From NCBI RefSeq assembly GCF_036588685.1, contig NC_086379.1, forward strand, positions 12,214,001-12,278,000: 64,000 nt of DNA, read 5' to 3'. Positions 20,545-43,954 of this stretch are shown here, piece after piece. The position numbers and the translations under genes were made by a program. The notes below the pieces were generated by a model. That model saw only the letters and a program-made list of their open reading frames with translations, was not told the origin of the DNA and did not search any database. Source of the DNA: Mytilus trossulus (Eukaryota). Within the stretch, counting starts at the first letter, position 1. The number at the start of each line of letters is the position of its first letter.

Positions 20545-23500
20545 ATGGAAATGATTGGCAGTTTGTCTATTGTAGTTATTTTCTGTTTAAGTAAGTTAAC
20601 ATAAATACTATTAGACTCACGGTTAAAATAAAGACATGTTTGTTTTATAGTAATATTATATTATTGTTTCTGGGATTCACTAATAACCAAGTAATGTTAT
20701 TGCTGTCAGTCTATACACAGATCAAGGAGAATAAATGTTTGAAAATTGGTCATTTAAATTGAATTTTGTTATGATCATAAATGCTTGTTGTTATTAGAAC
20801 CTCATAATGACGAAAGAAGTAAGATGGAAAGCAAAAGGGTTTCATATACATGTGCATGTATTAATATATTGCCCCAACTACATGTGTTTCTAATGCTTTT
20901 ATAAACGTTTGGAATGGCGACTTTTAATCTTATATACATTATCAATGTATTAGTATGGAAACTGATAGAATCTCGGTACTGAAAATCCATAGCAAATGCA
21001 CTTTGATAATTTCTTAGTTGACAAGTGTGTACCTGTACTTAATACACGTGTAGACCATCGGTAGTGTACATTTACAGCCTTTGTCCATATCGACCATTGT
21101 TTTGGGAAACCTATTAGCGCTAACTGTTTTATTTCTAGTAGGAATTGAATACTTTACATAATGGCGTTTATAAAATAAGAGCTCCGGAACCCAGCTCGAA
21201 GTAAAAAGCAACAAAGACAAATCACACTTTAGCAGATCTCATGCCTATAATAGAGTATTCTTTCAAGTAAATTTTTTTAGTTGTATTTTTGTTTTCATAA
21301 ACATAAAAATGTGAACACTAAACCAGCAAACATGTGTTTCACACACAGTTTTGTTACTTAGCAGTTGTTCAAGTAGCATTTGTACAAAAAAGAGTAAATC
21401 ATTAAGACTTCTAGATTTTGTTTTCACAATACATCAATAGGGTTATAGCTTTTGTAATCATATGCTTGTCTTTCATATAAAGGTGACGAAAAATGTAAGA
21501 GAAAAAGAAATACCTTAGTAAGGAGACAATATGATTTTGTAGTAAATTAATACGATATAGTTAGAAAATACAGAAAATTAAATAGATATTTTTATGCGTT
21601 TGACCGAAAAATAAAAAAAAAAAGGAAATGAACAATAACAATCTAAATTGATTTATACAGTGTGTTTCGACATTTTTAATAATTATAGATGACGAGAATG
21701 TCTCGAAACTGCTATTTATATTGTTGTAAGATTAATAATGTGTGTCATGTACTATTTTTTTCAATTTTATTTGAAAAGTAAAATCACAAAAATACTGAAC
21801 TGTTAGCAAAATTCAAAAAGGATAATCCCTAATCAAATGGCAAAATCAAATTTGAAACTGTCACACATCATGTTCATGTTTTTATTAGCTAGCTATAAAT
21901 CAAGTTTTCTACACAGGAATATGCATGAACGAATGATGTTATCCATTCGTTTGGTGTGTTTTAGATTTGATTTTGCTTCCAGTTTTTAATATTTCTTGGA
22001 GTTCGGTATTTTTGTTATTTTTTTTTTATAGTTCTATGTACATATGTAAAACACATAGACTCAGAAAATTTAAAATACTACTGTTCAATTACTTATATCA
22101 TCCAAGTATCAATGACATTACATAGTTATTAATAAACACAAGAAAAAACTTATTATAATAATAAAATACATACATACAAACAAACATATCAAATCGTGAT
22201 ATCGAGAAACTGCTTTTTAATTGAAAATAATATGAATATTCATGTTTTAGATATTTCAACAAATGCAATTTTAGTACACAAACCCCCAATTATCCACACA
22301 AATCATCCATATCTTAACATCAGAGAAAATTCCCCAATAGGTAAGTACAAAAGTTGTTTTCATTTTGAAATATTCAAATATAATGAAAACCTGCTAATGT
22401 GTAATAGATACTTTACAATAACAACACATGTATTTCCAGAATAGCGTTTATAAGGTTTGCTTGCTGCTAAATGTAGGACGAATAATATTAATGGAAATTT
22501 TTTTTAAAAACCTGCAAAAAAACTGATAAATCTGACTAACGTCAGAAGTTTTTATGCTCGTGGATATCGATGATTTTCTAATGATTTTGCGATTTAAATT
22601 AAATGAGCACTAATTGTCAAGGCATCTATAGTATAGGGTCTTTTTTTTGCTTCCGTAGCATGTTGTACAACAGTGACTACTTTTAGTTTCCAGCGTTTAT
22701 TACCTTGATGAACTAGATTTGCCTATGTCAAGGAATATTTTCGGTCAACCAGACCAACGGTTTGCATTTTCACCTAATTTTGAAAGATGATTTTTGTATG
22801 CAACATTTTGAAGATAAATAGTTATTATAATTATTGTTTTATGAAACAATTTGAAGATAAATAGTTATTACATTAACATAAAACGTAGAGGGAATTTACA
22901 TTATTACTTGTCTAAGAAAAAAACATCTGAAACTCTATCATATGGATATAGGACGATATACTTGCATTGGGCTATCACAAATCATTCAAGATGTTCACCA
23001 GAGCATTATGTCATATATTTTCTAGTCATTTGACGAAATTGAGGTTGGTGAAAGATTATAATTTAAGATAGAGCAAACATTCTATATTCACCTTGTCCGC
23101 CATTTGTTTAATTGTAGGAACCTCATTTGTTGTTATTGATGCGTCAAGTCAAACAAATGATGTTGTCACTGTGACACCACATGATAGTGCAACAGCTGCA
23201 AGAATCACCCTAGTGCCTGTAAAAGTAGGGGTCAACTCGACATACAGAGCTCTTACTAAAATTATTCCTGATAGAGAGGTATGGTAGATTTAATTTGATT
23301 AAAAAATCATATAAGCTTACTTTAAGTGTCAGTCTTCTTTTCAAAACTCATTTTCGTAAAGAAGCATCTCAACATTTCAATTCGATATTGTTCATTAAAA
23401 TGAGTATACCTATTGTATTGTAATAGTTAACTGAATATCAATAATGTTCTTTAAAGTGGTTTAACAATTTGCAAAAAATAGCTAAGAAATACATTGATAT

Positions 23501-26500
23501 ATATGTTTGTATGTAATTTCTTAATAATATAGGTGGAGGTTTATCGAGATGTAAACAGCCACTTTATAAACGCTCTTCTTCAAACTTGAAAAGAACAGCG
23601 TCTTTATAGAAATTAACCATTGTAATAATCTAACAATATTTTGAAACTTGGTATAATTTAAAATATGGTAGATGCATAAAATAGTTTTAAAATACAGATT
23701 ACTGCCATGGTCGATTTTTAGTTACTTATGATTTGTGATATGCTATTTTTTTAATTAAATAATCTATTTTTGTGTATTAATATGATGTAGAAAGAAGGAA
23801 CATGGTTTCTAACATTTCAAGCTCACGATTCTCATGGTGATGTAAGTAAAATAGATGGAAAATAAATCTGTTTATATTATTTTAGTTAAAAACCTTAAAT
23901 TAACGACATTTTACACTAAGAGTAATCTTTCTTTCCAACAACTGGCAAGTGTATTGTATCTTCTTTCTCGCGAATTTGGACATTATCATTGACCTTTGGT
24001 TTTTTTTATGAGACTGTCTTAAATAATAGGTTAACGCATGCAATTATGAATAATACACTATGTGAAAAGATAAGTTGAAACATTTTGAAAAGTAACTATT
24101 GATACAGCGACCAAAGTATTGTTTTAAACTTTATAACTTGTTCATATTTAACCTATATATAAGAAGATGTTGAACGAGTGACAATTTTGGAAAAGTTCAT
24201 TAAAAGAATACACATTGAACGTATCCAATGTAATTTGTACATCAAATAATCTAAATACAGACGCTCGAATGTATAAAAAACAACCTAACTAATATTGTAA
24301 CAACAGTGCCGTAAACAGTCAAATTCACTGGCAAATATTCACAAAAACAGTCCATGATTATTGTAAAGTTTTGAATATACTTAATCCTTTTCTGATTAAG
24401 AAAATAAACAACAACAAAAAACACAAAAAACACAAAAACAAATGAAACTTGGGAATATGATAGTAAACATGTAATTTTATATCAGTGGCTAAAATATGAA
24501 TTCAAAGTATAATGTATTTTTTAAGAACGTGACTTTCTGAGGGTATCACCAGCCCAGTAGTCAACACTTCGGTGTTGACATGTATATTAATCATGTGGTC
24601 ATTTTCATGAATGTACTGTTTACAAAACTTTGATTTTTTCGAAAAACTAAGGATGTTCTAATGCAAGGCATAGAATACTTTAGCCGTACCGCGTATTAGG
24701 CACAACTTTTTGGAATTTTGGATCATCAATGCTCTTCAAGTTTTTACTTCTTTGCCGGCAAAAATATTTTGATATGAGCGTCACTGTATGTAGACGGAAT
24801 GCGCGTCTGTCGTACTTAATTATAATCCTGGTACCTTTGATAACTATTTACATGTTTACCGCATTTGAAGATAAAATAAAAATGTCATGAAAAAAAATCT
24901 CCTTCATTCCTTTCTTTACTGTGACGCGATTCGAAATATAAAAACACAACGTTACGGATAGACCAATTAATCGAACGAAATAGATAATTGCAGGTTATTC
25001 GTCTGAAAAGTAGGATACGAATAACTGTGCAAAAATGTTCAATTGGGAACCATTTAGGCTGTATAATCTATGTATTTTCGTCGGTTTTGACAAATTTTTA
25101 ACAGAATCTTCCAAAATTATTTGTTCAACTCAAACTTGTATTCGTTGTTTATTAAAACAATGAAATAATGTTAATTTTACCGCGATGCCTCATCAACTGA
25201 AACCGTTGTATGTAAAGTTGTTGAAACAAAGGCATGACTATATTTACTTTCTATTATATGAAAAATTGACAATGTTACTAAAACAATTGAGAGATTCAGT
25301 ACCTTCTAAAGCTTAAGTATTTCTTATTTAATTCGTGTTGGTGCGGTGGAAGATAGTTTCCACATCTGGTAATTAAAATGAAATTAAAGCAATTTAACTT
25401 TACCGCCACGTTTGAGACATGTGCTAACTTCTCCATGTTTCAGCCATTTTCGTACTGACCTCTCTACCTTATAAAAAGGTTGTTCCTTGGACGATTTTCA
25501 TTTGAATAGACTAGTATAATTTGTCACGATGGTTAGCTACTATTCTCTAATTAGACTTGCTTGTAACATATGTTTTCATCTGGATATGCAAATTGTAAAA
25601 CGAGTTATTTTTCAACATGACCATAACTCTAACTATGTAATATTAATTAAAACGGCTATTAAAGAAGCTTTATTCTATACACTTATGAACTTCAGAAAAA
25701 TAGAGGATCTCCAACTCTTTTCTTTTTATTTCAGACTTTATGGACTTTGCCTCTTCATATCGATGATGTAAATGACAACGCTCCATTTTTCGTGCACGAC
25801 CATTTTCATGCTGTTTTCGGATTTGTAAGTTCAAAACTGAAATTAGTATTAATTCCTTTATATAGCTTGATATCAAAGGAAGTACAAGAATAAAAATAAA
25901 ATATATAGGTTTTGCATATTACATTTTTTCTACTCTTGGCGCTACAACTGAAAAAAGAATATTTGAGTATAAATAGAGTAACAGTAAGCAAAATTACTAC
26001 TGTAGTATACCATCATACTCTTATATAACATTATAAAAATGTGTAACATTTTTATAATTGTACTTTGAAGAAAATAACTAGACTATAGGGTAACCATCAA
26101 CTGTTTGCACAGGGAAACAAAGTTCATGAAAAATTGTTCACTGTCCTTTTCATGAATTTTTTATCTTTAATCAATTTTGATTTTAACTAAAACTGACCGA
26201 AATCTGTTACCCATATTTTGACTATTTTTTTTATTGTGTCTGTTTATTTAACACATTAATTTTAATATAACGAAATTTGATGAGACTGTCATTAAAGTGA
26301 GAGGGTTAGCGCTAAAGACATGATAGAACCAGGTTTAATCCACCATTTTCTACGTTTGAAAATGTCTGTACCTAGTCAGGAATATGACAGTTCTTGTCCA
26401 TACGTTTTTGATACGTTTTGTTATTTGATTTTGCCATGTAATTATGGACTTTCCGAATTGATTTTCCTCTAAGTTCAGTATTTTTGTGATTTTACTTTTT

Positions 26501-29500
26501 ATCATAAGTTATGAAAATCCAAATTTAAATGATAGGGAATAACTATTAACATTTTAAAACTGATGTTATCGACGTTAATTTTTTTTTTTTTTTTAAAGAT
26601 TTTGATTTCATTTGAAAAAAAATGACTTTTAAAAGAAAATAGTAACACCCGTAATATATTAATGTATTTCTCTGTTGCACCTATAAACAAATTGCTATTT
26701 AGAATGATACAATGATATGCCATTTTTTTTATCAAGAAGTATAATTAAATATAGTCTGATTTAGGTAAAGTATGAATACCATTCTTATCTGTATGACTTT
26801 TGTTTTTTTAGAATAGAAAATGTTCTTTGATTTTATCATGTTAATGGGTTCCTTTCAAACTAATTGTATAACAAGTCATATTTCATTCTATCATGAAACA
26901 GACCCAACACAAATACATTTTATAGTAGTATCAGAAAGATGTGAATAACTAAATACTTTATCCATATTTAGGGTTTGACAGTTGGAACGAAGGCTTTGCA
27001 TGTGACAGCTTTGGATGCTGATGATGGCCCTAATGCGGCTATTACATACTCAATGAAGGTAACATCTTAGTAACTCATGTATTTTACTGATTTTCCATTT
27101 GTTGTATTTGATTTGATCTGCAAATATTTTGATTCGAGCGCTTAAGATAAGAAAGGTGTAAAAGAAATGGGCGTCGATCGATTTCAACTATGAGCACGAA
27201 GTTTTTACCCGTTTTCTAAAAATGATAGGACAGCAGAGTAAAGTAAACGTTTTTGATTTTTAAGTTATTAAAGAAACTGTAATTGTCATGTCCCAGTGTG
27301 TTTGATCTTTTAATTTGTTTATAAGAAAAATACCAGAAGGACATTAACAGTGAAGTCAAAGTGTATAACCATAAGAAGGACGATCAACACTATAGTCAAA
27401 AGTAAAACTGAAATATTAAATTATTGTAAATAAAGGCAGCAGTTGTATACAGTGGTCAAATGTCATAAATCAATTGAGAGAAAGCAAATACGGGTTAAAA
27501 ACTAAAATCGAAAGAAAACACATCAACTTTAAGAGGAAAAGAAAGACAGGAACAACAGGAATACTGAAGTACAACAAAAATAAACGCAAACATTAATGCC
27601 CTTCAATCCTCGTACTTTATTTGATCTTTTTCACATTTTTTTTATTCGAGCGTCACTGCTGAATCTTTTGTAGACGAAACGCGCGTTTAGAAAAATATAA
27701 ACTTTCAGTTATGGTATCCATGATCAGTTTATATACGTAGAATCGACATATTTGATAAAAATAGCCATATCCCTGACTTGGTACAGGACATGTGTACAAA
27801 TACAAACGATCAAAACACTAACAACAATATATAAAAGCAGAAAAACTTAAAACTGGTACTGCTTCTACTTCAAATACTAACAACATAACTTTAAATATAT
27901 TTATTAGCCCCATCTTGTGACGCATCCGTCATCGAGATACAATGCCTTTGATATCGATCCGAGTACTGGAGACATCACATTGAAGGAGGCGCTGCAGCAT
28001 GGACAGACAGTATATCATTATCAGGTCAATGCAACAGTAAGTGATATAAGATATTATAGGCAAGTGCCATTCAGACCTAAAAAATATTTTTAATGCACCT
28101 ATCTAACACACGGCTATATTATATATCATTCGAAAGGAAAAATGTGTAGATTCCATTTTTCCCGGTCGTAAAAATGAAATATGGTGCATTTTTTTTCAAA
28201 TTGGGATCAAAGGTCATTCATAAAAAATTGAAAGAAAAACACTTTTGCAGTATTGTTGTTTTATTTGAAGCAGCTGGTGATATAACTAATTCAATTTTTA
28301 CTTTACACGATATTATGATAACGTCTCTCTGATTCTTAGTTGCATATCGTTCATGGTTTGGCGATAATTGACGTCATTTTGACGTTTTCACTCTACTATA
28401 GGTAAAACGGTACATTCTACAAAAACGTCGTATTATAACAAATATTTGACCTAACATGTGTTAATATTTGCTATAATTGATGGTGTGCCATGCAAAATAA
28501 AAAAGAATGATGAAATATTTGTAAGTTGGACGAGTAAAAGGGAGAGAAAAAACCGCCATAAAAAGAGTAAAAAGTAGACGTCTTTGTCACATCAATAGTG
28601 ACAATAGTCTCTTGTTTGCTAACAGCCTACAAACCGTGTTAAGATCGGAAATCACTATCTAACATGTTTAATACAACCACAAGCAAAGTTTAAAAGGATA
28701 TGTGAATCACATTTTAAGTCTGTCCGTCCGTCAGTCCCCACTTGTTTGCGGCCCATGTCAAATTAAATCAGGTAACTGAAACATGTATACAGATATACAG
28801 TTGATCCGAAAACCAATGATTTCAAATATAAAATGCATTGCCTTGAACTATAGAACTGATGTTAAACACACTTAGTTCAGAGATGTATTATGGGATGGCA
28901 CGTGGTTCCTCATGAATTAAATCAGTTCATTTTAACAGTGGCATTGATATTTTGAGCCGTCAAGTTTTCAAACATTGTTTGATTCGTTCTTGTCTGGTTT
29001 GTGTCCGGTTCATATATTTTGAACCTTTGAACCAGGGTTTTCCAAACTAAGTATGCATAAACATCATATAATAGGGTATGGTCATAAACTAAAATCAGGT
29101 CACTATGATATGGATACAATCATAATGGAGTCCTGTCCGCGACATATATAGCTGCAAAACTAAGGTTTTTACATTGTCAAGTGCCTTTTATGGCCGACTA
29201 TGTGGTATGGGTTTTGCTCATTGTTGAAGGCCATACGGTGACCTACAGTTGTCAATTTCTGTGTCATTTTGGTCTCTGATGGACAGCTGTCTCATTGGCA
29301 ATCATACCACATCCTCTCTTTTTATATTTAGCAAACTTCAGATACAAAAAAAATGAAGACAAGATTTATCGCAAGTAAACTGAACTATTCATGACTTGCA
29401 ACCAGCTTAAGTCGTAAGAGTTGTTGTGAAACTGACCCCAGATGCAAAATAAGAATGCGGTGATTTACAAACTAAACTTAGGTCCCACGGTGACCCTTGT

Positions 29501-32500
29501 TTTGACACTTGGGATTATATACTTTACAAACACTTTAATTTCACTACGTGTTTTTTTTATTACGACTGCATTTTTTTTCACTCACGTTTGTGCAGTCAAA
29601 AGATTTGCAGTTAAAAATGCAAGCATTAATGTCTTACCAGTATTTAAAACTTAGATATATATAGATTTTTATCAACTAATATGAATTTGCGGGATATAGT
29701 TCGGCTAAACCTATATTTAGCTTTTTTTGTCATTCTGGAGGATTTTCTGTGAATAATCTATTTCGTTTAAAGAAACGAAATAAATCTCATTTATTACAAA
29801 TAATGCAATTATGAAATAATAAATGAAATAAGTATGGCGTTCATTATCACTGAACTAGTATACATTTGTTTAGGGGCCAGCTGAAGGACGCCTCCGGGTG
29901 CGGGAATTTCTCGCTACATTGAAGACCTGTAGGTGACCCTCTGCTGTTGTTTTTTTTTTTATTTGATCGGGTTGTTGTCTCTTTAACACATTCCCCATTT
30001 CCATTCTCAATTTTAATTTTCTATTTTGTGATTTTTAACAATGTAAGACAGTTGAAATTCATATTTTAAAACTGAGCCTGTGAAGCTTAATTTTGCTTTA
30101 CTGGAACAATTTTTGATACTTCGCTGTTAATGACATAATTCTGTGTAACAGATGTTTACAATGATTTCAGTACATGTACAAGTTCTCTAATGCATATTTT
30201 TTCCTTCACAAGAACAAATTTATTAAATCCTGAAGAAAGTATGACGTATTTGTTTGCCTGCTTTCAGAACATGTAATTTGAATGATGATGCACTTGGTGG
30301 TATGCGTGACACGATGGCAATCTTTTTTGTTTGAAGTCTGTTATAATGTAGCTTGCTCAAATCGTCTTGATTAGACTTATACATACGTATTTTTGGTTTC
30401 GGACACTTTAGAGTTTTCTTTCAGCACCGATCTACATGTCAATATGAATTTTGTTAAACTTGTGATAGACACGCTATCTATATATTGATGATTTCGAAAG
30501 CGTTAAAAGAGAGTTTTCTTAGATACACAGATAGATGATGAGCTATGTAACTTGTAAGCGCATGAACTGTTGGTAAAGGTACATATATTTGATAAAAGAA
30601 ACTATACATGCACGAAATCAAACTCTTTCAGTCAGTTTAATTGAAGTCTGGAGCTGACATGTCAGTTAACTACTAGTAGTCTGTTGTTATTTATGTATTA
30701 TTGTCATTTTGTTTATTTTCTTTGGTTACATCTTCTGACATCAGATTCGGACTTCTCTTGAACTGAATTTTAATGTGCGTATTGTTATGCTTTTACTTTT
30801 CTACATTCGTTAGAGGTATAGGGGGAGGGTTGAGATCTCACAAACATGTTCAACCCCGCCGCATTTTTGCGCCTGTCCCAAGTCAGGAGCCTCTAGCCTT
30901 TGTTAGTCTTGTATTATTTAAATTTTAGTTTCTTGTGTACAATTTGGAAATTAGTATGGCGTTCATTATCACTGAACTAGTATTTATTTGTTTAGGGGCC
31001 AGCTGAAGGACGCCTCCGGGTGCGGGAATTTCTCGCTACATTGAAGACCTGTTGGTGACCTTCTGCTGTTGTTGTCTCTTTGACACATTCCCCATTTCCA
31101 TTCTCAATTTTACAATAAACATGGTGCATCGCCGACCATAATTCACACTGGTTAAAGACCTCGTAAACAGCACACAATTGTTCCATGTCTACACTACAAC
31201 GAAGTGTCAGATCATCGTCGACCCTCTGACATTACTCCTCTTAAATTGTTAATTCGTATTTAGAATAAGAAGCCTGATAATATCATATTATAAGCCCGGT
31301 ACCTTTGATAAGTATGATTAAAAGGACACTATGATCTATGTATACCAGAGACTAAATGCTTTGAGGTAAACAACTATAGCTTATCGTATGGCTAAAACAA
31401 GAAGCAATTGCCAACACCGTACATAAGCTATAAAGGTTATAAAACAATTTTAATTAGATACTCAAAAGCTTGATTCGTGCTCAAAACTACAAACAAAAGC
31501 AAAAATCATAAAAAGCAACTAACGACAACCATAATGAATAACAAATCAATTTGAAAGATATTAGGCATATGATCGCTTGCCTACGTTAGACACGTGTTTC
31601 GTCGACATAAGACTCATCGGTGACGCTCGAACCAAGTAAAACTTCGTAGAATATTTAAAAACATGTAATCCTATTTAAAATACAGCATAAGTAACATATA
31701 CCCCCTGAGGTAGAACATTTATTGCATTTCAAATATCTACGAAAAATTCAAAATGATCAACTAAATGAATTGATATCCCCATACATTAAAGTATTTATAG
31801 CATGTCAACATACAGGTTCTTGACGTGGCCCTAGCACATACGCTATGCTTCCTCTAAAATACTGACCAAATTTGCACCATCGATAAGTCTACCGTGTGCG
31901 ATAGTTAAAACGGTAGGAAATTTAAAAGGTGGACATATATCTCACGTTCAAGTTCATGGTAAAAATATCAGATTTGACACATTTTTGCGTACTTTTATTT
32001 GCAAAAGTAAAATGTGCGTTGATCCAATTGAGAAAGAAGTATTTTTCAATAGTTATTCGTAATTTCTTTTTTGTAAGTGCAAATTGACTAAGAACAGTAA
32101 GATATTGGTTTTCTACTAAGAAAAAAACGTTGACATTTCAGCTTCTGTGAGCCTTTTAATTTATTTTTTTTTATACTTTGCGTAATAGTAGTACCAAAAT
32201 TGCCTTCGTGGTTATTCATATTCTTTTATTCGAAGCGTTCCATAAACTTTAGGGAAAGAAAGCGATTTCGGAAATTTGATTGAAAAGGGGGAGTGTGTAA
32301 AAAATGCATAAAATTCAGAATAATACAGTGATAATGATATGTTTTAAACAAGTCATGAACTCTTGAATAATACGAACATCATTAATTTTGGTTTCAAGCC
32401 GAAAATATCTACAAAATGAAAAAAAAATATGAAAATTGGCACCATTTTTATAAAAAAAAATCCAAAATTGTTACAAAAATCTTTTTTTTTCTCAAAGATT

Positions 32501-35328
32501 ACTTTTTTTATTTTTGAAAAGTATTTCTTTATTCATTGACATGTTAAACGTACATAATTTTTGCATTATGACAACAGAAAATAAAGCTACATGTTATTTT
32601 TTTCACGCTTCAACACTGTTGGTCATTTTTCAATTTGGAATTATTTCTCGATTTTAATTCAATTTTTACAAAAAATGCACAATACGATTTTTTTACGACC
32701 GACGAAAAACGGAAGTTCAGATATTATACTATAACACATAAAAAATTCAGCTGTGTGTTAGGTGGGTGCATTAAAGTCACTAACTAAGCGTCTTTTCTGG
32801 AAATGTCACTCGCCTATTATCATATACTTAGAATAAATAACATATGATTTTTACCGTATGATAATAGCATTAAATTAAAGTATTTTCCATATTTTTCGAA
32901 TTGGTGCTTAGCGGGCTGATATGAAAAGTTTATCACATGCTTCGATTGTTATCACATTTCGTTCCGTAACGTTATCACATGGCATTCCGGTGATACTCGG
33001 CAAATTCCGGAAAATACACCTCATTGATCAATGCTACGTTTTCAGTGAAAACCATTACAAAGTAGTGTACAAAACAATTATTTGAATACTGGAAAGTATA
33101 TTGTGTCAAAATAATTAAAAAAAATTGAAAAAAAATTAAATAAATGCATTTTTTTAGTTTTTCCGTCTAAAACATAATTTAGAAAGTTACTTTAAAAAAG
33201 TTGACTTTTCCAAACAATGTCCATTATGTATATTGTTGAATTATTTTTTGTCGACTCGTCCATATTAAAATGTGGTTGTTTTTTCTCTGTTGAGGCATAT
33301 GATGGAAAGATTTCATATTGAATGTATCAAATTTTGGGTCCGACATCCGTGAACTTTTTACTCTTTCAACTTATTTTCGGGAACCACGTAAAAGGATCAA
33401 TATATGAATCTGTTCTTTTTCTCTACCGTTGAAGCATATGGTAAAAAGATCATAACATGTCATTTTTCATATCGCATGTATTATCAGCCCTCGGTCAATA
33501 TCAGCCCTCGAGCCATGCGGCTCTTGGGCTGATATTGAACCTAGGGCTGATAATACATGCGATACGAAAAATGCCATGTAATAATCTGATAATATATAGT
33601 GTATTTTTGTGGTAAGACGATAAAAAACGAAAAGTTATTTAAATTTGAAAACTTAAATCTAACATTGCAATTATAGTAATCGTTGGTGATATAAATGATA
33701 TAAGGGGTATAATTTCCCTGGAATTACCTATTACATATTATCTTCGCTAGCCAAGGGTTACGATCACCTCCCGCTCTCTTCACCCTTGGCGGATTGAGAT
33801 AATATTTCGGAGACACAAGGTAAGGATTTTAATTGGTTGCAGTCAAAACTCGCTGCATCCAATCAAAAAGTGCCTATAACATGATCACGTGTAAATGTAG
33901 AAAGTGTTTGTAAACAATTACCACGGTTTATGGTGCAACAAGTCTTTACATCCCTAAACATACGACTATTTAGTGACAACTTGACTGTTTTTAAACAACC
34001 AATAGTAGTTCCTGTGTATGTTTCATGCACAAATGCATGGATGTTGACGTATATTTACATTTCCGGCTATACCAAGTGTGTAGAGTCTAGACGCTACCGT
34101 GTTTTTACCTCAAATTTGAAGAGTTCAAATGCTACCATTGGTCAATAATAATGTATTCGGAATGGGCGTGATTTTTATCTTCCGATAGATGGCGCAACAT
34201 TGTTATCACAAATGTTGGCTTAATCCGCCAAGGGTGAAGAGAGCGGAAGAGGATCGTAACCCTGGGCTAGCGAAGATGATTACATATAAACAGTTTAACA
34301 TTGAATCATGATTTGATAAGGCATTCGATTTTCTAATGCATGTAAAGATATGATCAAACAATAAATAATATTGGAACAAACTGTCACAATTAATTAACTC
34401 AGCAAATACATATAAAATAATTCAGCAACCCAAACACTAAAGAGAGATGTTAGATTAAGGGAAATTTCATAGAATCGCAGTTTGTTTGAGCTCTTTTAAA
34501 GTACTTAAAATGTTGATTTTAATCTTGCTTCGAAAGTGACATAACAGAATGTAGAATCGAATGCCGCTTATTGTGTCTACGCATCCATTCTCGCATCTAT
34601 TGAAGTTCATTCAATTTTATTATTTCTTGTTTCTGACATTGAATCGCCTTCTTAAAAGAATAATTAGTTTTAAACATCAGTAAACTACTATTGCTTATTT
34701 TCATTTTTTTATGACGTTTAGATCCACCAATTATTAACTTGTTATACATGTAGCTCAAATTCATGAGTGTGCTACTTTCATTGTAAGGTGATGTCAAACA
34801 TTTCTTTTGTCCAGAACGGTACTCCAACATAGCAAATGAACGCGCGTTACATTTTAAAGAAGACAGGCGAAGGATACCAGAGGGACATTCAAACTTATAG
34901 ATAACAAATGAACTGACAACCATATGGCTAAAATAGTAAAAAAAACAGACTAATAAACGTACACGAGACACAACATAGAAAACTTAAGACTAAGCAACAT
35001 GAACACCACAAAAAATTGGGTTGATCTCAGGTAGTCAAGAAAGGTCAGCAGAACCTGCTCTACATGTGGCACCCATCGTGTTGATCATGTTATTACAAAC
35101 CCGGTAAATAGTCGGAAGATTGCATTGATGAAAAGGGAACTTGGTTGTAGTTACGACATAAGGAACATATCCGATATCATTTGTGAAACGGCTGTTCAAA
35201 TTAGACTGTTTAAACATTGTACTCTATACAGTAAAGGTCTGTATATATTTCAGGATGGTGGAATCCCACAGCATGTGGCATCAGCCTTAGTGGATATATC
35301 CATTCTAGATTTTGGTGTGATTGGCTGA
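20545..35328 (+). CDS. Secreted two-cadherin-domain protein, paralogue A (242 aa)
   Basis: Exons 20545-20590 (signal peptide MEMIGSLSIVVIFCL), 22251-22340, 23118-23278, 23791-23841, 25735-25824, 26972-27058, 27908-28036, 35254-35328 (TGA); 729 nt in frame, all GT-AG. Motifs RENS, PDRE, DDVNDNAPFF, DADDGPNA, ATDGG. No TM segment. AATAAA at 35353. Confidence 0.85.
24535..24850 (+). repeat. Retrozyme-like repeat copy with deleted hammerhead core
   Basis: Homologous to the other units; the core is reduced to GCGTCACTGTATGTAGACGGAATGCGCGTC. Confidence 0.65.
30614..31112 (+). mobile_element. 5'-truncated non-coding copy of the Naiad element's 3' end (shorter copies at 29830-30015 and 47197-47325)
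   Basis: Highly similar to the reverse complement of 49876-50400. Confidence 0.85.
31583..31626 (-). ncRNA. Hammerhead-like motif in a decayed retrozyme repeat
   Basis: Minus strand GCGTCA-CCGATGA-GTCTTATGTCGAC-GAAA-CACGTG-TC-TAACGT. Confidence 0.6.
33455..33579. repeat. ~125-bp near-perfect inverted repeat (end of a non-autonomous element)
   Basis: ACATGTCATTTTTCATATCGCATGTATTATCAGCCCT..AATATCAGCCC / GGGCTGATATT..AGGGCTGATAATACATGCGATACGAAAAATGCCATGT. Confidence 0.75.
33739..34278. mobile_element. MITE with ~55-bp TIRs and a 9-bp TSD
   Basis: TIR ATCTTCGCTAGCC.AGGGTTACGATC..CTCT(C)TTCACCCTTGGCGGATT. ATTACATAT is duplicated at 33730-33738 and 34279-34287. Confidence 0.8.
34860..35195 (-). 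repeat. Dispersed repeat, probably the 3' end of a second Penelope-like family (also 8130-8300, 36290-36430, 59715-59885)
   Basis: The copies are mutually homologous, and the copy at 8130-8300 directly follows the decayed RT fragment in the same orientation. Confidence 0.6.
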
Positions 35329-37614
35329 TCTTTTGTTTAAAATAATTGGAAGAATAAACAAATGATTCTGCTTTCCAATTTGATTTTTTATGAACGAATG
35401 TCATGAATGTTATGATTTATCATTATGTTGCTATAAAAAATTAATGAGTACGAAAATGATGTAGATCATAATCAACAGCTATTTACTAAGAATTTTCTGG
35501 TATAACACACAATTTCTAATGAAGTTCTTACTTTTAAATATGCATTTGTGTTACATTGAAATAACATTTATAGCACTGTAAGAAGAGCCAAAAGAGTAAT
35601 TTGCATTTTTTTTAACCTATTATGGATACATAAGAATGAATAAGAAACGTTAACTCGTACATGTCATATGATAATAACATTGAGGTAGGAATGAGGTTTG
35701 TGTCTGAGAGCCAACAAACCGGCCATATGACAGAAAACAGCTGAACGCCATCATTGGGTCTTGAACACAGCTAGAAAATCACACATCTGAAGGTGGGCTT
35801 CAGCTGGCCCCTTAAAACCATTTACTAGGTAAGTGAAATTGGGCATCAATCTAAACTCCACAACATATAAATGAACTATAAGACTAATAAAGGTCAAGGC
35901 TCCTGACTTGGGACACCAGTACTGACTGTTATCGACTGGTTAATTCGTAAAACACTAGTTATTTATTCGGTCTACGACAATGTACAGAACGAACTTTCTA
36001 TATATAGTTCTAAACTTGATGCCCCTTTCTGTCTCATTTGAACAACATCTTTAATGAAATACTACTATACATTGTACTCTTATCTCATTTGTTCCATATT
36101 TTAGACACAGTTTCTAATTTGGTTTCTATCTTAACATGTATGGGTCACTTTAAACATGGTTTAAACTATCGAAATTTGTTTAATGAGATAATTTGAATTT
36201 TCTTATAACAAAACTATGTTTAAATAATGATATTAGGATCCTAGCATCTGTATTGTAAATCAGCGAAAAATATCAAAAGCACTTACAAACTATAAAGACG
36301 TCGCCGTGGCTTAACATTATAAAAGACCAACAGACAACAGCAGTACACAAAACACAACATAGAAACTTAACACTGCAACTGTAATCCCACAAACAAACTG
36401 GTGATCTCAGGTGCTCCTGCAGGGTAAAGGTTCCTATGCCGCATACTATATTCAGTATTATATGAGGAAACGAGCCCAAATTCTAAATAAGTACCAAAAT
36501 GTACCTCTTTTTTTTATCTTCTTTAAGATTATCTTTGCTCAAGCATGTCAAGGGTTGAATATACGACGCCATTTTTTTTTATAAGTTTACAGTATAATTG
36601 AGTCAATAAATAAACTATTTACCATCACGCGACAATACAAAAAAATAACAATAAGGCATAGTGCATTCTTTAAGTGTATAAAAATCACCTCAGTCAATTG
36701 TCCTCAGAATATAATATACTAATACATCATTGGTGAATCGAACAAAATTTTTAAAAAAATGTATGATATACAAACTTGCACATGGTTTATTCAAGATAAA
36801 AATTTAAGAAATGATAGCTGTAATGAAAAGTAATGTAATACAAAAACTAAGCAAGCAATGATTTGGTTTTTTTTCATATTTCATCACGGGTATTTAATTA
36901 TTTTTTTTCCTCCCCGAAACATACATTTGTACTTGTGAACTTTGTTCAAGAATGTTTTAGGTAGTGTTTTATATGCTCAAATACTTTTCTAAAACCTTGA
37001 CGAATACAACCGCATGCGCAGTCGAGTGTGTCAGTTCTGCAGTACCAATAGGAAAACAAAATGTCAGACAGTACTACATGTGAACATTTCTATTTATTGT
37101 CCAATGACGTGTCCTTATAACATGTGAAACTTGTTAACTTCTTATCTACCTTTGGTGACCTTTAAAGGACACATATGAAAACAATTTCGTGACCAAAGAC
37201 AGACCAACGACAGACCAGGTATATTTATTTGATTGTTTAACCTAAAATTTTCCTCAATCATGTTTATATAAAAAAAATGTTCTCTATTTATGTTTATTTT
37301 CTGTAAAACTTGCAGTACCAATTATGTTTTATTGTCGTAACTTTAAATCAAGTAAATTGCGTTTTGGTTTACTTTTATTTCAAGGCACTGTTTTGTTCTC
37401 TCTAGTAGAAATATCCTGGGTTTATACTTTTCTGCAGAAAAATAATAAGATTGTAGATACAGAAATAGTTTAAATTTAATTAGCAAGATACGAAACTACC
37501 TTCTAAATGTTCTCCGTTACATAAACGAAGACGTACTGATCAAAATCATTTGATTAATAAACTTTAGCAGCTATTAATTGTACAGTACTGCTTTTAGATA
37601 GAAACCTGGAGGAA

Positions 37615-40600
37615 ATGTTCTGGAAGTATGTTGCCGTCCTTACTATACTTATGTTTGGTAAGTAAATAAACTTGTAAAAAGCGTTGATGCTGTTACTTCA
37701 ACACGTTCGATAGCTCTTCTGGTTGACCAGAAGTTCCCTAGGTATTACTGTCCCATCAGCTATATACAAACGAACTGACATGGAAATTAGGATGTAATGC
37801 TATTGCAATATGCTGTAATCAATCTTCAAAACCCATTTTGAAGAAATGTTTTTCCTCACACTTAGATCTGACTCTTTGTTTGTTAGTGTACCCATTCTAG
37901 CTTTTCAAATCATATTAGCTCTTCATGGTAAACATCCTATATGTCATATGATCGATCATCAATGAAGATGAATTAATTGTCGAAATTGTTGAAATGCGCT
38001 TCTGGTGCAAAAAGATAAGCAACATAATGCTATTAACAATGGTTAACATTCTTAGTGGTTTAAGGAGTATTTTCAAAGTTCTTATTTTGAATTCATTTTT
38101 CCAAATCTGATACCAAAAGTTTAAATAAATATGAAACGAAATACAACTGCCTACAAAATAACTGTATCAAGGTATGTTATTTCAAATAATGATCATCCTT
38201 TTCGGTAAAAATAACGACCTAGGCTTAAAAACACTTTTTCTACATTTTCGTGCAAATGGATTTATTGGACTGTTAAATGGTACAGCGGTTCGCTAAAGAG
38301 ATACATTTTGTAATCCATGCTACTTATAGTATACATGAAATCTTTTATCAAAATGATCTAAACTGGATAATTGTTTTCGACTATTGTAAAATTGCAATAC
38401 AACTGTGCAACCTTTTTCGAGTACAATTACTGAAAAAGGAGTATGAAATATAAAAACAAGAATAATATCTACTGAAACTGTTGATTCATTGATATTTAAT
38501 AGATACATATGTTCATGAATTTTGTTGGTACTGACGAACTTCAAAATTCCATGTAAAACGAATGATAACATTTCTATAGGCTTGTATGCACTGTTGATAA
38601 GGTATAAATAATTCACGAAATTTGGTACTAACGAAAAACCGAAAACAAATTAATCTCAAGTGTCTGAATAAGGTATATCTTAATAAAGTAACTATGTATA
38701 TGACCAATATCATGATTTATATTTGTAGAATACACAACGGCTTTAGTTATACATAAGCCGCCAATAATTCACACCAATCATCCATACCTAAATATCAAGG
38801 AAAATTCAAGAGCGGGTACGTAAATTTTGAGTGCCAATGAGAGATCTCTACAACAAGTAACAATGTGTAAAAAGTTAACAACTATAGATCAAAGTACGGC
38901 CTTAAACACAGAACCTATGATCAAACCAAACAACAAGTGATAAAAGGCCCCAAAATAACAAATTTAACCCCGCCACATTATTCATGTATGTGCCTCTCCC
39001 AAGTCAGGAGCCTGTATATTCAGTGGTTGTCGTATGTTTATGTGTTACATATTTGTTTTTTGTTCATTTCTTTACATAAATAAGGCCGTTAGTTTTCTCG
39101 TTTGGATTGTCTTACATTGTCTTATCGGGGCCTTTTATGGCTGACTACATGCGGTATGGCCTTTGTTCTTTGTTGAAGGCTGCACGGTGACCTATAGTTG
39201 TTAATGTCTGTGTCATTTTGGTCTTTTGTGGATAGTTGTCTCATTGGCAATCATACCACATCTTCTTTTTTAAATGTAAAACAATTCAACTTGAAAACCA
39301 ACTGTCCAATCTATAACAAAAAAAAAGAGAAACGAAAAACACTGAACAAACAATCTACCCACTAAAATATTTCAATTATACATTTACAAAGCAAAGTAAG
39401 GCGGCAACTTTTACCGAAGAGCTGACTTATTGGCTTGTGATACCCTCGGAGACAAAACGTCAATTGGCAACGACCTAGTGGTGTAAATATTTATCAAAGG
39501 TACCAGGCTTATAAATTTATACGTCAGACGTACGACATTTAAACGACGAGCATGTTTTTGCTGAAATACACCAAATCGACAAAACCATCTTAGTTTCTCT
39601 GTGACCAATGTTCTTGTGTATGTTTGAGCTGTATTACTGTCACTTAGTGTTGTCATTTTAGCTAAACAAAATAACATTGTCATAAAGCGGGAGCTTTTGC
39701 TAGCTTTTAACCAGGTTGTCAACTAGCCCGTTTCTATGTTTGTTTACGGGTTTTTTTACACAACAATGTTCCTGCTGTCCCTTTTTCCCTCTGAGAGTTG
39801 ATGTGCTTCCCTCAGTTTTAGTTAATAGCCAAGATTTGTTTTCTCTCAATCGAGTTATGACTTTTGAACACCAGTTTATTACTGTTGTCTTTATTTAACA
39901 CTTGTGTTGCTAGTTATTGATTAATAATAATGTTGAGTAAACAAGTTTATAGTTTTATATTTTCTTTTTCTTTTTTTTTATGAAAGATCATAAAAGGACA
40001 ACTAAATGAATAGATAGATAGATAAATCCCTTTAATCTCGTGAGACTCCGTACACATTCATAATACTGAAGAAAATAAAAAATACTATGCTAAATTGCAC
40101 TTTTATTTTAGGGACAGAGTTTGTCATAATAGATGCTTCAAGTCAAACAAATGACACAGTAACTATAACAACACACGACAATGCCACAGCAGCAAGAGTA
40201 TATCTGTTCCCAACAAGATTAGGAATCAATTCAACATACAGAGTTGCTCTTAAGAAGATCCCGGATAGAGAGGTACTGATATTACGTTACATTATTTACA
40301 TAATGTGTATTTCAGTTCAGTAATTTAATATATAGCACGATAGTGTAGTGTTTCCTACAGGTGGTTTTGGCGTGTAATGGCGCCCTGCCGCGATTTCTCG
40401 ACGCCCTGCCCTTTTTGGGAAAAAAAATTTGGCGCCCTGCCCTAATATTGTCGAAATTCCTGACGCCATGCCTTTATCGTCGTAATTAACATACTGAAAG
40501 ACATATTTTATGAATACCGCTCGAGTTATTTCACTTCAAAGGTAAACAAAAGTTCACTAGGACGCCATTTTGTAATCGATTTCGTAATCAGCTGATTAGC

Positions 40601-43600
40601 AAACTGCAATAGATTTAATAGTGAATACAGATACTAATCACGCGTCCTGAGTGTATCCCCCAAGTCCCAGAAATATCGTTTTGCCTAGAAGATTAATGAT
40701 ATGACATTGTTTTGACAAGAAACTAAACCGGAAGACGATTTCAAAACATGATGTGATGCTTAGATCATTTTTTTGACAGCTAATAGATTTCTAATTTACA
40801 TTACAGTTGTTAACCATTCCTTTGATTTGTTTGAACTTTTGGTTTTGTTATTTGATTAGGGACTTCCCAGTTTTGAATTTTCCTCGAAGTTCAATATTAT
40901 TGTAATTTTACTTTTCACAAACAAACAAAATGTAGCAAAAAAACAACAGTATAGAAAACAAGCACAAATAAGAATATGCATGTATATATATACTTTTTAC
41001 ATAAGGATATTTTTTAATGTAGTTAGGTTTCTCTTTAAACTCATTAACTGTCCTTATGTTTGATTTTCGTGTCTTTCAGGACGAACGTACATGGTATTTG
41101 ACATTTAAGGCACATGACAATCATGGAGATGTAAGTATAGGTAGTAGATGAGCTTTAGAATTTTTATACGAGGATAGCATGCAAGCATGCAACGAAAACA
41201 TCTATAACACAAGGCATGTTTATTTTATTCTCTTAAAATTGCATTTGATTTACCTCTCTACGTTCAATTTAATGACATTGCAAACGGCAATTTCTAAATT
41301 AAATTATTCTCATAGAAGCGATCTTGCAGACGATGTGAAGGATCAGATTAGAGTCATTATATGAAAATGTGTACCTTTTAAATTGTGTATTTTGAAATAG
41401 TTCAATCACAAATAATTACACTTTATGCTGTAGATCACCTATTTTTTTTTCATGCGACTGATAGACCTTTCATTTTATTCACCTCGTATTTATATTGTCA
41501 AATTAAGTACAACAAATTTAATTCGACGTATATTTTCTATTGGTTTCGTTGCTTAATATGAAATTAAGTATAATTTACTAAAATCATATTAATAAATGTT
41601 ATTTAAAAAAATTAGATGTACTGTGATTGCCTATGAGATAACTATCCATTAGTTTAAAACTGATGTCCGATATCCTACTTGGTTTATTCATAACAGTGTC
41701 AGTTAAAAGTGTCTTACTTTTTCAGACTTCATGGACTTTGCCACTACATATTGATGATGAAAATGACAACGCTCCATTCTTTGCACACGACCATTATCAT
41801 TCTGTTGTTGGATATGTAAGTATACCATGATATATTTCGTACAATTCAATTTATATAATGAACTCGCAAAAATTGTTTTAAACATGTCAAATGCAATCTA
41901 AAGCCTTAATAAGATTTCAACCGTATCACAACTTCAGTTACTGATATTTGTTAAATACATTTCCAACAAGATTACACGACACCTATAGAGCGACTTAAGT
42001 ATGCAAAATGATTGGTTGAATATCTGTCGGTTGCTTAATGTCTATTGTGAATGTTTTATGAATATTCAGGACGAACATAAATATGACGCAGTGGATATGT
42101 CATGGTAATACATATATAACCTGCTTAAGCTTTGATATGGTCGACATCTTTTGTGTTTGATATCTTAAATTATGAAGCAAGTGTTTCATATCTTAATCGT
42201 TTGAGCAAATGATTAAATGCCTTTGTGTAAGCTAACGTATTTTTGGTTTCACTTTGTAGTTCATATACCTAAGAAATTAATCACTTAGTACATCGGTACA
42301 TTGAATATTTACATTTCGATTTATTCCACTTTTGTAGGGATTGGCAGTTGGGTCTAAAATTTTACACGTGACTGCAATGGATGCAGACGAAGGACCAAAT
42401 GCAGCAATAAGCTACTCCATGAGCGTATGTTTTATCTTGTTGATAATTGACTAGTCAAAATTTACTATTTTTGTAAAGTACCGTGCAGTCTATGAAAGTC
42501 CGTAATAAAATAGAAACCAAACAGAATAATCTGAAGAATGTAATATTTATAATGAAGCACTGCATTCCCGAATTTGATTTTGGAATCACGCAAGAAGTTT
42601 AGGAATATAAAGTATTTTTAATATTGAAATATGAGTAATTGTCAAGCAATTTGAACAATGCCAACAGTGATTTAGCACTCTTTGCATCCTACTTTAACTG
42701 AATCCAATGTTTGGAAGACAATCCAATAATTGAATTCCTAATAGTTTGCGCCGTTAATTGCTGCTAATTATTGTTCTATCTTTCTTCTTTAAAAGAAGCA
42801 TATCTATGTAATTCCTATGTGTATATTCACCAAATCATATAAATGATATAAGTAATGAAATATTGCTAAATATTTAATATATTATTCAGCCCTACCATGT
42901 TTCATCTCCCTCGTCAAGATACAATGCTTTTGAAATCGATCCAAACACCGGAGGTATAACTTTAAAGGAGGAGCTCCAGCATGGTCACACAACGTATCAT
43001 TATCAAGTAAATGCAACGGTCAGTATACCTTCTGTATCTTTCAAATGAAATGTCCTCACGTTAATGAAGGGATATTCACCACCAAATTCAAATGGTCAAC
43101 GTGTGGAATGTTGAGATTTTTCAGATTATAAAATTGATTTATATTGATCTGAAATATTTCCTCTTGATATTAAAATATGAATACAAATTGCATTTGACAG
43201 ATCTAAATGTTTGGCCTACAACATTAATATTTTCCACACTTATGCGTTAATTGTTTAATACGAGTCTGTCTGTGAAAGAAATTTTACATAGATTTAAGTA
43301 TTAAACATAGAGCACTGTGTCTAACTATTATAATACAAAATTTACAAAAAACACATGTTTAAGAAACGGTCATTTATTAAATTGGTTTCCATATTGAAAA
43401 TATTACATTCTCACAAACTAATATAAAACTTTGTCACTCGATCTTGATCTATATTTTTCTACTATAATTTGAAAATCAAATCGGCAAAAACGTATACATT
43501 TGATAGATAAAATGATAAGTATTTTGTACTTGTAGTATGTATATTTTTTTTTCCTTTTATCCTTTTCATGATATCGTTTATTTTTCAGGACAATGGTGTT

Positions 43601-43651
43601 CCGAAACAATCATCATCAACACTGGTCAATATCGAAATATTCGATTTCTGA
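37615..43651 (+). CDS. Secreted two-cadherin-domain protein, paralogue B (236 aa)
   Basis: Exons 37615-37657 (signal peptide MFWKYVAVLTILMF), 38729-38815, 40112-40272, 41080-41130, 41726-41815, 42338-42424, 42890-43018, 43589-43651 (TGA); 711 nt in frame. Internal exon sizes 161/51/90/87/129 are identical to paralogue A. Motifs KENS, PDRE, DDENDNAPFF, DADEGPNA, ATDNG. Confidence 0.88.
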
Positions 43652-43954
43652 AGCTATTGGATAACATGACAGAAATAAAATTAAGAAGAAAATCAGTTGT
43701 AACTAGATTCTTGAATAGTATTCATAAAATGAATGATCCCTTCAAACTGTTTGCATTAACTGTTTTTACTATGGCTATATAATGTTTGTCTTGTGACCCA
43801 CGTGTACTTCCCTGCATATTAAATCAAACATGCAGACTGATATAATCACTCCTTTTTGTATTTAAGTACAGTATAGTTATAAAATTGTATAAAACTTGGT
43901 AAAAATGAGTGTATAAAATAATATCAAAAAATTGATTTGAATAACAACGATTTT

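What the first reader, a model, noticed from the sequence alone, without database searches (positions are those of the whole stretch)
20545..43651. Tandem pair of secreted two-domain 'mini-cadherins' next to a CDH23-like receptor
Both genes have a signal peptide, exactly two EC domains, no TM or obvious GPI tail, and matching intron positions. The Ca2+ ligands of the EC1-EC2 junction are intact (xEN, DRE, DxNDN, DxD, AxDxG). The EC2 residues that would serve a further junction are lost in both: GF/GY instead of PE, LQHG instead of LDRE, and an end at LDF/FDF without DxNDN. They therefore appear to have evolved as genuine two-domain proteins rather than fresh truncations. Established: CDH23/PCDH15-type cadherins bind through EC1-EC2. 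Inference: these may be soluble ligands, decoys or matrix proteins derived from the N-terminal tip of the neighbouring cadherin. I do not recognise a described family like this.
Basis: partly seen in the sequence, partly recalled or inferred. Interest (0 to 1): 0.7.

Follow-up and report, generated by a model that had tools for sequence, protein, structure and literature searches.

The report
Mussel secreted two-domain mini-cadherin genes
Two neighbouring mussel genes each encode only the outer two domains of a hearing-type (cadherin-23-like) adhesion protein with no membrane anchor; they are old, conserved, spliced and unusually rich in histidine, and are likely secreted proteins that probably act as metal-assisted linkers outside the cell.

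Summary
Gene A (20545-35328, 242 aa) and gene B (37615-43651, 236 aa) have eight GT-AG coding exons each, a signal-like start, two cadherin domains and a stop. They are identical to two database proteins labelled Mytilus trossulus. Of 14 named Mytilus models, 11 stop at the end of EC2. A and B are 72% identical with dN/dS about 0.09. One of five laid runs holds spliced contigs: A through its stop codon, B exons 3-6 only. The genes correspond to EC1-EC2 of a tandem CDH23-like cluster upstream (same intron phases, best scores to the N-terminal window), but at only 26-33% identity and on a long branch, so they are old and remodelled. The calcium ligands of the EC1-EC2 junction are intact; those of a further junction and the DxDxD of tip site 0 are absent. 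New here: histidine is about 7%, against 0.9% in the paralogues' EC1-EC2. Function is untested and tissue unknown. Best guess: a secreted, metal- or pH-assisted extracellular linker; decoy for the cluster's receptors comes second. No description found in 10 literature searches. New variant of a known kind.

The parts
20545..35328 (+). Gene A, 242 aa. Coding exons 20545-20590, 22251-22340, 23118-23278, 23791-23841, 25735-25824, 26972-27058, 27908-28036, 35254-35328
   Evidence: GT-AG model; equals P0014; spliced 696-nt contig in run X6 fits exons 2-8 through the stop
35353..35358 (+). AATAAA after the stop of gene A
36925..37218 (+). Probable non-coding 5' exon of gene B (or read-through 3' UTR of A), with a GT donor after 37218
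   Evidence: one X6 contig joins 37218 to 37604 with 5 other letters between; donor and acceptor sequence; weak
37615..43651 (+). Gene B, 236 aa. Coding exons 37615-37657, 38729-38815, 40112-40272, 41080-41130, 41726-41815, 42338-42424, 42890-43018, 43589-43651
   Evidence: equals P0009; spliced joints 41130>41726 and 41815>42338 plus an exon-3 loose end in X6; AF2 model pLDDT 86.7
43674..43679 (+). AATAAA after the stop of gene B
1..13345 (+). 3' part of the full-length CDH23-like membrane cadherin U1: last EC exons, TM exon 9098-9225, tail with YQRKLKAAT, stop ending 13345. Its EC1-EC2 exons lie 30-40 kb upstream of the window
43958..59367 (-). Convergent acyl-CoA synthetase (AMP-binding) gene. 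Its last coding exon is 44065-43958 and its 3' UTR probably overlaps the end of gene B. It is not part of the finding but confounds read depth over B exon 8

Best explanation
Genes A and B are two spliced, conserved mussel genes that each encode a signal-like leader plus EC1-EC2 of a CDH23-type cadherin and nothing else; they likely arose by partial duplication of the 5' exons of the adjacent cadherin cluster, are predicted to be secreted as calcium-stiffened two-domain rods, and probably work as extracellular linkers whose added histidines bind transition metals or respond to pH. Shown: gene structure, a stop after EC2, purifying selection, splicing (all of A from exon 2; B exons 3-6), EC1-EC2 homology, an intact junction motif and about 8-fold histidine enrichment. 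Inferred: secretion; calcium at the one junction; origin as a truncated copy that later duplicated into A and B; and the role, in which a rod freed of its membrane anchor bridges matrix, mucus or cell-surface partners, with histidines at the two open ends standing where calcium sites are missing.
For: Models and phases. 11 of 14 named Mytilus models from five species stop at the end of EC2. pN 0.163 and pS 0.702 over 216 codons, corrected ratio 0.09. Spliced contigs in X6. No EC-like frame at E<=10 in 120 kb downstream of B. Same intron phases as the cluster genes, exon 3 is 161 nt in A, B, U1 and U2. Three successive exon sizes and four intron phases match human CDH23 donors c.145, c.288, c.336, c.429 (PMC6826400, table passage). 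Scores of 200-239 to the N-terminal window of three cluster cadherins against <=145 elsewhere; EC1 alone 93-129 against <=53. Two-EC model, with CDH23 EC1-3 and EC1-2 ranked first (Z 16.6 and 16.4, rmsd 3.1 and 3.5, 200 aligned). His 16/220 and 15/217 against 17/1891 in nine paralogous EC1-EC2 regions (Fisher p 3e-8 and 1e-7); 9 His columns invariant in 9 of 9 sequences. Computed net charge about +2 at pH 5.5 and -12 at pH 8.1. Precedent for His-Zn cohesion in mussel mfp4: PMC12817120 passages.
Against: No tissue, protein-level or binding data. Only 1 of 5 laid runs (X6) showed spliced joints; X8, X10, X21 and X24 did not. B's exon 7-8 junction was not seen, and depth there is confounded by the antisense gene. 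dS is near saturation, so the ratio is rough. Two M. galloprovincialis models of B (P0002, P0008) shift frame in exon 6, either a null allele or an assembly error. M. californianus B has DVNNN at the junction and fewer histidines (12/217). The histidines are dispersed, not in repeated blocks, and their spatial clustering could not be measured because no coordinates were available. The Z-scores of the top fold hits are tied with other cadherin pairs (PCDH15 EC7-8 and CDH23 EC12-13 at 15.9). The Fisher tests treat related sequences as independent.
Confidence: 0.45

Rival explanations
1. A and B are soluble competitors or ligands for the tips of the cluster's own membrane cadherins (or their PCDH15-like partner), tuning links between cilia or microvilli.
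For: They keep exactly the two domains through which PCDH24 binds CDHR5 (PMC8691648 passages). Soluble CDH23 and PCDH15 fragments inhibit tip-link regeneration (statement in PMC3679001 citing another paper). The genes remain beside the cluster, and the junction ligands are intact.
Against: Only 26-33% identity to any paralogue's EC1-EC2, on a branch about three or more times longer than the paralogue groups'; a decoy would be expected to keep the parent's surface. The His gain is unexplained. No co-expression data.
Confidence: 0.3
2. A and B are secreted body-fluid proteins (haemolymph, extrapallial fluid, mucus) that carry or buffer metals or bind microbes, using the cadherin fold as a scaffold and not as a linker.
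For: His enrichment, acidic pI of about 5.7, N-glycosylation sequons, no anchor. His-rich metal-binding fluid proteins in Mytilus are recalled, not from a call.
Against: Only two copies in this genome, with high conservation across species, unlike the diversified immune families of mussels (recalled). No proteomic record was found.
Confidence: 0.17
3. A and B are by-products of an unstable cluster: truncated copies, or parts of a longer fused transcript, with no function of their own.
For: The cluster holds other incomplete copies, U2, U3 and probably U4. One M. coruscus model (P0001) fuses U1, A and B, and A exon 8 has a possible phase-1 donor. Frameshifted B models exist.
Against: dN/dS about 0.09 with near-saturated synonymous sites; intact two-domain ORFs in four species; the X6 contig reads through that donor to the stop; each gene has its own leader exon.
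Confidence: 0.08

Closest known systems
Cadherin-23 EC1-EC2 and the Cr-2 subfamily (CDH23, PCDH24/CDHR2, PCDH21/CDHR1)
   Same: Two-domain fold in register from the N-terminus; canonical junction motif; matching intron phases and similar exon sizes
   Different: Cr-2 proteins are long type-I membrane proteins with a tip calcium site 0 (N, DxDxD, xDx; PMC8691648). A and B stop after EC2, lack the DxDxD and are His-rich
Mytilus CDH23-like cluster paralogues (U1-U5; database P0037, P0048, P0054)
   Same: Closest sequences; same intron phases; shared W-x-L-x-[FL]-x-A-x-D exon 4 and helix insert in EC1
   Different: 26-33% identity; they keep xE in EC2 and, except U3, continue into EC3; His 0.5-1.6%
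Secreted splice isoform of PCDH15; shed cadherin ectodomains
   Same: Soluble cadherin ectodomain with no TM (PMC3679001 passage)
   Different: Those are products of a membrane-cadherin gene; here there are dedicated genes with their own leader exon, stop and sequence evolution
T-cadherin (CDH13) and calsyntenin (both recalled)
   Same: T-cadherin has no TM helix; calsyntenin has two EC domains
   Different: T-cadherin has five ECs and a GPI anchor; calsyntenin has further domains and a TM. Not compared by sequence here
His-rich mussel adhesive protein mfp4
   Same: Secreted, His-rich, same genus; Zn coordination described (PMC12817120)
   Different: mfp4 is a repetitive, non-globular protein (recalled); A and B are folded domains with about 7% dispersed His

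Membership tests
Cadherin superfamily | EC (Greek-key) repeats | tested here: met
   PF00028 above cut-off for EC2; AF2 model pLDDT 86.7 aligns over residues 22-236 to cadherin pairs at Z up to 16.6
Cadherin superfamily | Linker motif xEx, DxD, D(R/Y)(D/E), xDx, DxNDN | tested here: met
   All present for the EC1-EC2 junction in A and B (motif as in PMC8691648). Calcium binding itself was not measured
Cr-2 subfamily (CDH23, PCDH24, PCDH21) | EC1-EC2 homologous to CDH23-type N-terminal repeats | tested here: met
   Best scores to the N-terminal window of cluster cadherins labelled CDH23-like; shared intron phases. Fold ranks favour CDH23 EC1-2 but are tied within 1 Z
Cr-2 subfamily (CDH23, PCDH24, PCDH21) | Tip calcium site 0: N-terminal N, DxDxD, top xDx | tested here: not met
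   A and B read HKPP at the N-terminus and ASSQTND where DxDxD is expected; only the top D is kept. The cluster paralogues lack DxDxD too. The register rests on motif position, not on a residue-level alignment to CDH23
Cr-2 subfamily (CDH23, PCDH24, PCDH21) | Many EC repeats, membrane-adjacent domain, TM and tail | tested here: not met
   Stops after EC2; no EC exons found downstream
Cr-2 subfamily (CDH23, PCDH24, PCDH21) | Tip-to-tip binding to a Cr-3 or self partner | not testable with these tools
   The complex predictor was unavailable; a binding assay is needed
Protocadherin gamma / protocadherin-9 / Fat / CELSR (the automatic database labels) | Six or more EC repeats plus TM (recalled definition) | tested here: not met
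   Two ECs, no TM; the labels differ between orthologues of one gene
GPI-anchored cadherins (T-cadherin type) | C-terminal GPI signal after the last domain | tested here: inconclusive
   B ends at the last strand (mean hydropathy of the last 17 residues 0.25). A's last 17 residues are hydrophobic (1.81), but by homology to B they form strand G and contain two Asp. No predictor was run
Secreted splice isoform of a membrane cadherin | Shares its exons with the full-length gene | tested here: not met
   A and B have their own exons, 26-33% identical to the paralogues'

The most novel reading that the evidence does not exclude
Mussels have turned the adhesive tip of a CDH23-type cadherin into a dedicated family of secreted two-domain proteins that swapped their end calcium sites for histidines and assemble by Zn/Cu or by the pH jump from vesicle to seawater, and the parent cluster keeps shedding further secreted EC1-EC2 and longer truncated genes: a gene-encoded soluble cadherin system for matrix or ciliary adhesion.
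Probability: 0.25. Interest if true: 0.78.

Novelty: new variant of a known kind. Interest (0 to 1): 0.52.

Why it matters
Cadherins are nearly always membrane-anchored, and soluble EC1-EC2 pieces are known mainly as laboratory reagents, splice isoforms or shed fragments. Here evolution made and kept dedicated EC1-EC2 genes across a genus. They are small (about 24 kDa mature, no cysteines in the mature chain in this genome) and should be easy to express, so they give a natural test of what a CDH23-type tip does without its anchor and whether the fold can move from calcium adhesion to histidine-metal chemistry. They also correct four misleading automatic names.

Tried and rejected
First AF2 run on 9 close sequences failed (pLDDT 31); a 19-sequence alignment worked. 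Two metagenome locus scans found no confirmed relative (0 of 146 and 0 of 587 pattern matches). The run search listed no holder on record as RNA. Depth of 15-29 over B exon 8 and beyond was rejected as evidence for B: the contigs continue into a spliced exon of the antisense acyl-CoA synthetase. The first read lay was dominated by intronic repeats. The ESM Atlas gave only generic cadherin clusters and could not read the tail domain of P0046. The exon-3 profile found no cadherin among solved structures. The tree cannot name the parent: there is no proper outgroup, several internal-EC control rows were mis-split, and the tool warned of long branches meeting. In the 50%-cluster search, 4 of 10 hits (P0023-P0026) were dropped as repetitive proteins matching short stretches. 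Ten literature searches found no description of these genes; six accessions gave 0 papers. Subscription papers and supplements were not searched, and proteome supplements could list these proteins under other ids. Three look-ups of earlier findings were blank.
Full report
Observation. Reading the sequence and checking splice sites by script gives two genes on the + strand. Gene A runs 20545-35328 (242 aa) and gene B 37615-43651 (236 aa). Each has eight coding exons, all 14 introns are GT-AG, and the phases are identical (1,1,0,0,0,0,0). There is no TM-like stretch after the leader, and AATAAA follows each stop within 25 nt. The translations are identical to database proteins P0014 and P0009, labelled Mytilus trossulus and auto-named protocadherin gamma-B4-like and CELSR2-like.

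Are they really two-domain genes? (i) Of 14 named Mytilus models from five species, 11 end within a few residues of the end of EC2. Two (P0002, P0008) shift frame in exon 6 and one (P0003) runs into intron 7. One of the 11, M. coruscus P0001, fuses the upstream cadherin, A and B; the first join would put EC domains behind a cytoplasmic tail, so I read the model as a prediction artefact. (ii) A profile of 24 EC repeats found nothing at E<=10 in the 120 kb after gene B. Its sensitivity is limited: it saw only 5 of the mini-genes' own exons. A genome search with P0009 listed no other hit near the 3' side among the 150 of 173 matches shown. The next gene is a convergent acyl-CoA synthetase. (iii) In run X6, a 696-nt contig (depth 78) joins gene A exons and reaches at least 88 nt into exon 8, past the stop; its length fits exons 2-8 ending at 35347. 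A second contig (depth 8.6) splices B exons 3-6 at GT-AG joints. The other four runs laid (X8, X10, X21, X24) showed no such joints; only about 6% of X21 and 18% of X24 were read. B's last junction was not seen, and depth over B exon 8 belongs at least partly to the antisense gene. (iv) A and B are 72% identical in the mature part, with pN 0.163 and pS 0.702, a corrected dN/dS of 0.09; dS is near saturation. Both stops lie in the same exon, so the truncation most likely predates the A/B duplication (inference).

Origin. I fetched 300 kb upstream and 100 kb downstream. Upstream lies a cluster of related cadherins: U1 (+ strand, full length, ending at 13345) and four on the - strand, U2-U5. Database models from this cluster carry labels such as cadherin-23-like and CDH23. 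Their EC1-EC2 exons have the same phases as A and B and near-equal sizes: exons 3-6 are 161/51/90/87 nt in A and B, 161/60/93/87 in U1 and U2, and 170-173/54/90/87 in U3-U5. Human CDH23 has donors at c.145, c.288, c.336 and c.429 (PMC6826400, table passage), that is phases 1,0,0,0 and exons of 143/48/93 nt; that c.288 falls at the DRE motif is recalled. A and B score 200-239 against the N-terminal window of three long cluster proteins and at most 145 against any other window. Identity is only 26-33%, and the branch to A and B is 2.09 changes per column against 0.76 (U1/U2) and 0.35 (U3-U5 group). So they come from the cluster's EC1-EC2, are old and heavily remodelled, and cannot be tied to the adjacent gene in particular.

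Range. Three word-based searches and one full HMMER scan of 1.84 billion representatives found full or near-full relatives only under Mytilus labels. Exon-3 fragments from unnamed assemblies at 60-81% identity to A (P0006, P0020-P0022, P0033, P0035) hint at a wider range, host not determined. The exon-3 query is short, so distant orthologues could be missed. Two copies were found in this genome.

Structure. The model of B (pLDDT 86.7, pTM 0.57) is an N-terminal helix and two beta-sandwich domains. Among 48,161 chains, CDH23 EC1-3 and EC1-2 rank first (Z 16.6 and 16.4), tied within 1 Z with other EC pairs. Foldseek ranks CELSR1 first by E-value; mouse CDH23 EC1-2 has the highest query TM-score of the rows shown (0.75). 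The EC2 glutamate is kept in all five paralogues of this genome and lost in A and B. The DxDxD of Cr-2 site 0 (PMC8691648 passages) is missing in A and B and in the paralogues too.

Histidine. The mature proteins hold 16/220 and 15/217 His, against 17/1891 in nine paralogous EC1-EC2 regions. Nine His columns are invariant in the nine mini-cadherin sequences aligned. By motif position several lie at the two open ends: H23, H109 and H112 near the EC1 tip, and H204-H210 at and just after the place where LDxE stood in EC2. H135, H137 and H139 alternate along one strand.

Mechanism. Shown: architecture, selection, splicing, homology, composition. Inferred: secretion, calcium at the single junction, and the role. 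I favour a secreted rod that links extracellular partners with help from histidine-metal or pH chemistry (0.45), because the long branch and the His gain point to a changed surface and mussels use His-Zn cohesion elsewhere (PMC12817120 passages). A competitor for the cluster's receptors is next (0.30): EC1-EC2 is the binding unit in PCDH24-CDHR5, and soluble fragments inhibit tip-link regeneration (PMC3679001 passage). A metal carrier or fluid protein gets 0.17 and debris 0.08. That these are functional two-domain genes is about 0.9. Tissue is unknown and no complex could be predicted.

Novelty. The genes are in public annotations under four unrelated automatic names. Ten full-text searches found no description (listed under Tried and rejected). 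I saw passages of six papers: PMC8691648, PMC6826400, PMC3679001, PMC12817120, PMC5549309 (cadherin domains enriched in gill and mantle-rim transcripts of another mussel, no gene named) and PMC2447487 (only reference-list passages matched). The rest were search listings with abstract openings. The proteins are cadherins of CDH23-type descent but fail two defining Cr-2 features, so I file them as a new variant of a known kind, interest 0.52.

Noticed in passing
G000:C7:12064270-12101916 (- strand; L025, L026, L027, L028): Paralogue U3 has EC1-EC2 exons and then a short eighth exon with a GT donor exactly at the end of EC2. Database models P0041 and P0042 from two other species also stop shortly after EC2. 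This may be a second, independent EC1-EC2-only lineage without the His gain; here it has a 29-kb third intron.
   Followed up: partly
L024:5083-6533 (- strand) and about G000:C7:11970019-11970803 (L038): Exons of a ~100-aa two-cysteine module follow the truncated paralogues U2 and U4. Database models join it to cadherins cut after EC2 (P0045, P0046) or after about six ECs (P0037, P0048, P0052). It looks BRICHOS-like from recall, but Pfam gave no hit. These are either real secreted fusions or prediction joins.
   Followed up: partly
G000:C7:11914001-12227345: Tandem cluster of at least five CDH23-like genes over 300 kb. Only U1 was seen complete; U2 stops after about six ECs and no TM exon was found for U4. 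U5 runs past the fetched region.
   Followed up: partly
window 43958-59367 (- strand): Acyl-CoA synthetase (AMP-binding) gene, tail to tail with gene B; its transcripts appear to cover B's last exon and possibly nearby introns.
   Followed up: partly
L024:668-850 (- strand): Small cysteine-rich ORF with a leader-like start between U2 and U3; not identified.
   Followed up: no
window 44985-46240: Tandem repeat array with a unit of roughly 45 nt in an intron of the antisense gene (seen by eye).
   Followed up: no
P0002, P0008 (gene B, exon 6): One M. galloprovincialis assembly has a frameshift in B exon 6, while another has an intact gene (P0004): a null allele or an assembly error.
   Followed up: partly
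P0007, P0016: The M. californianus proteins are B-like overall but share exon 4-5 residues with A, which suggests gene conversion; no separate A orthologue was found for that species.
   Followed up: no
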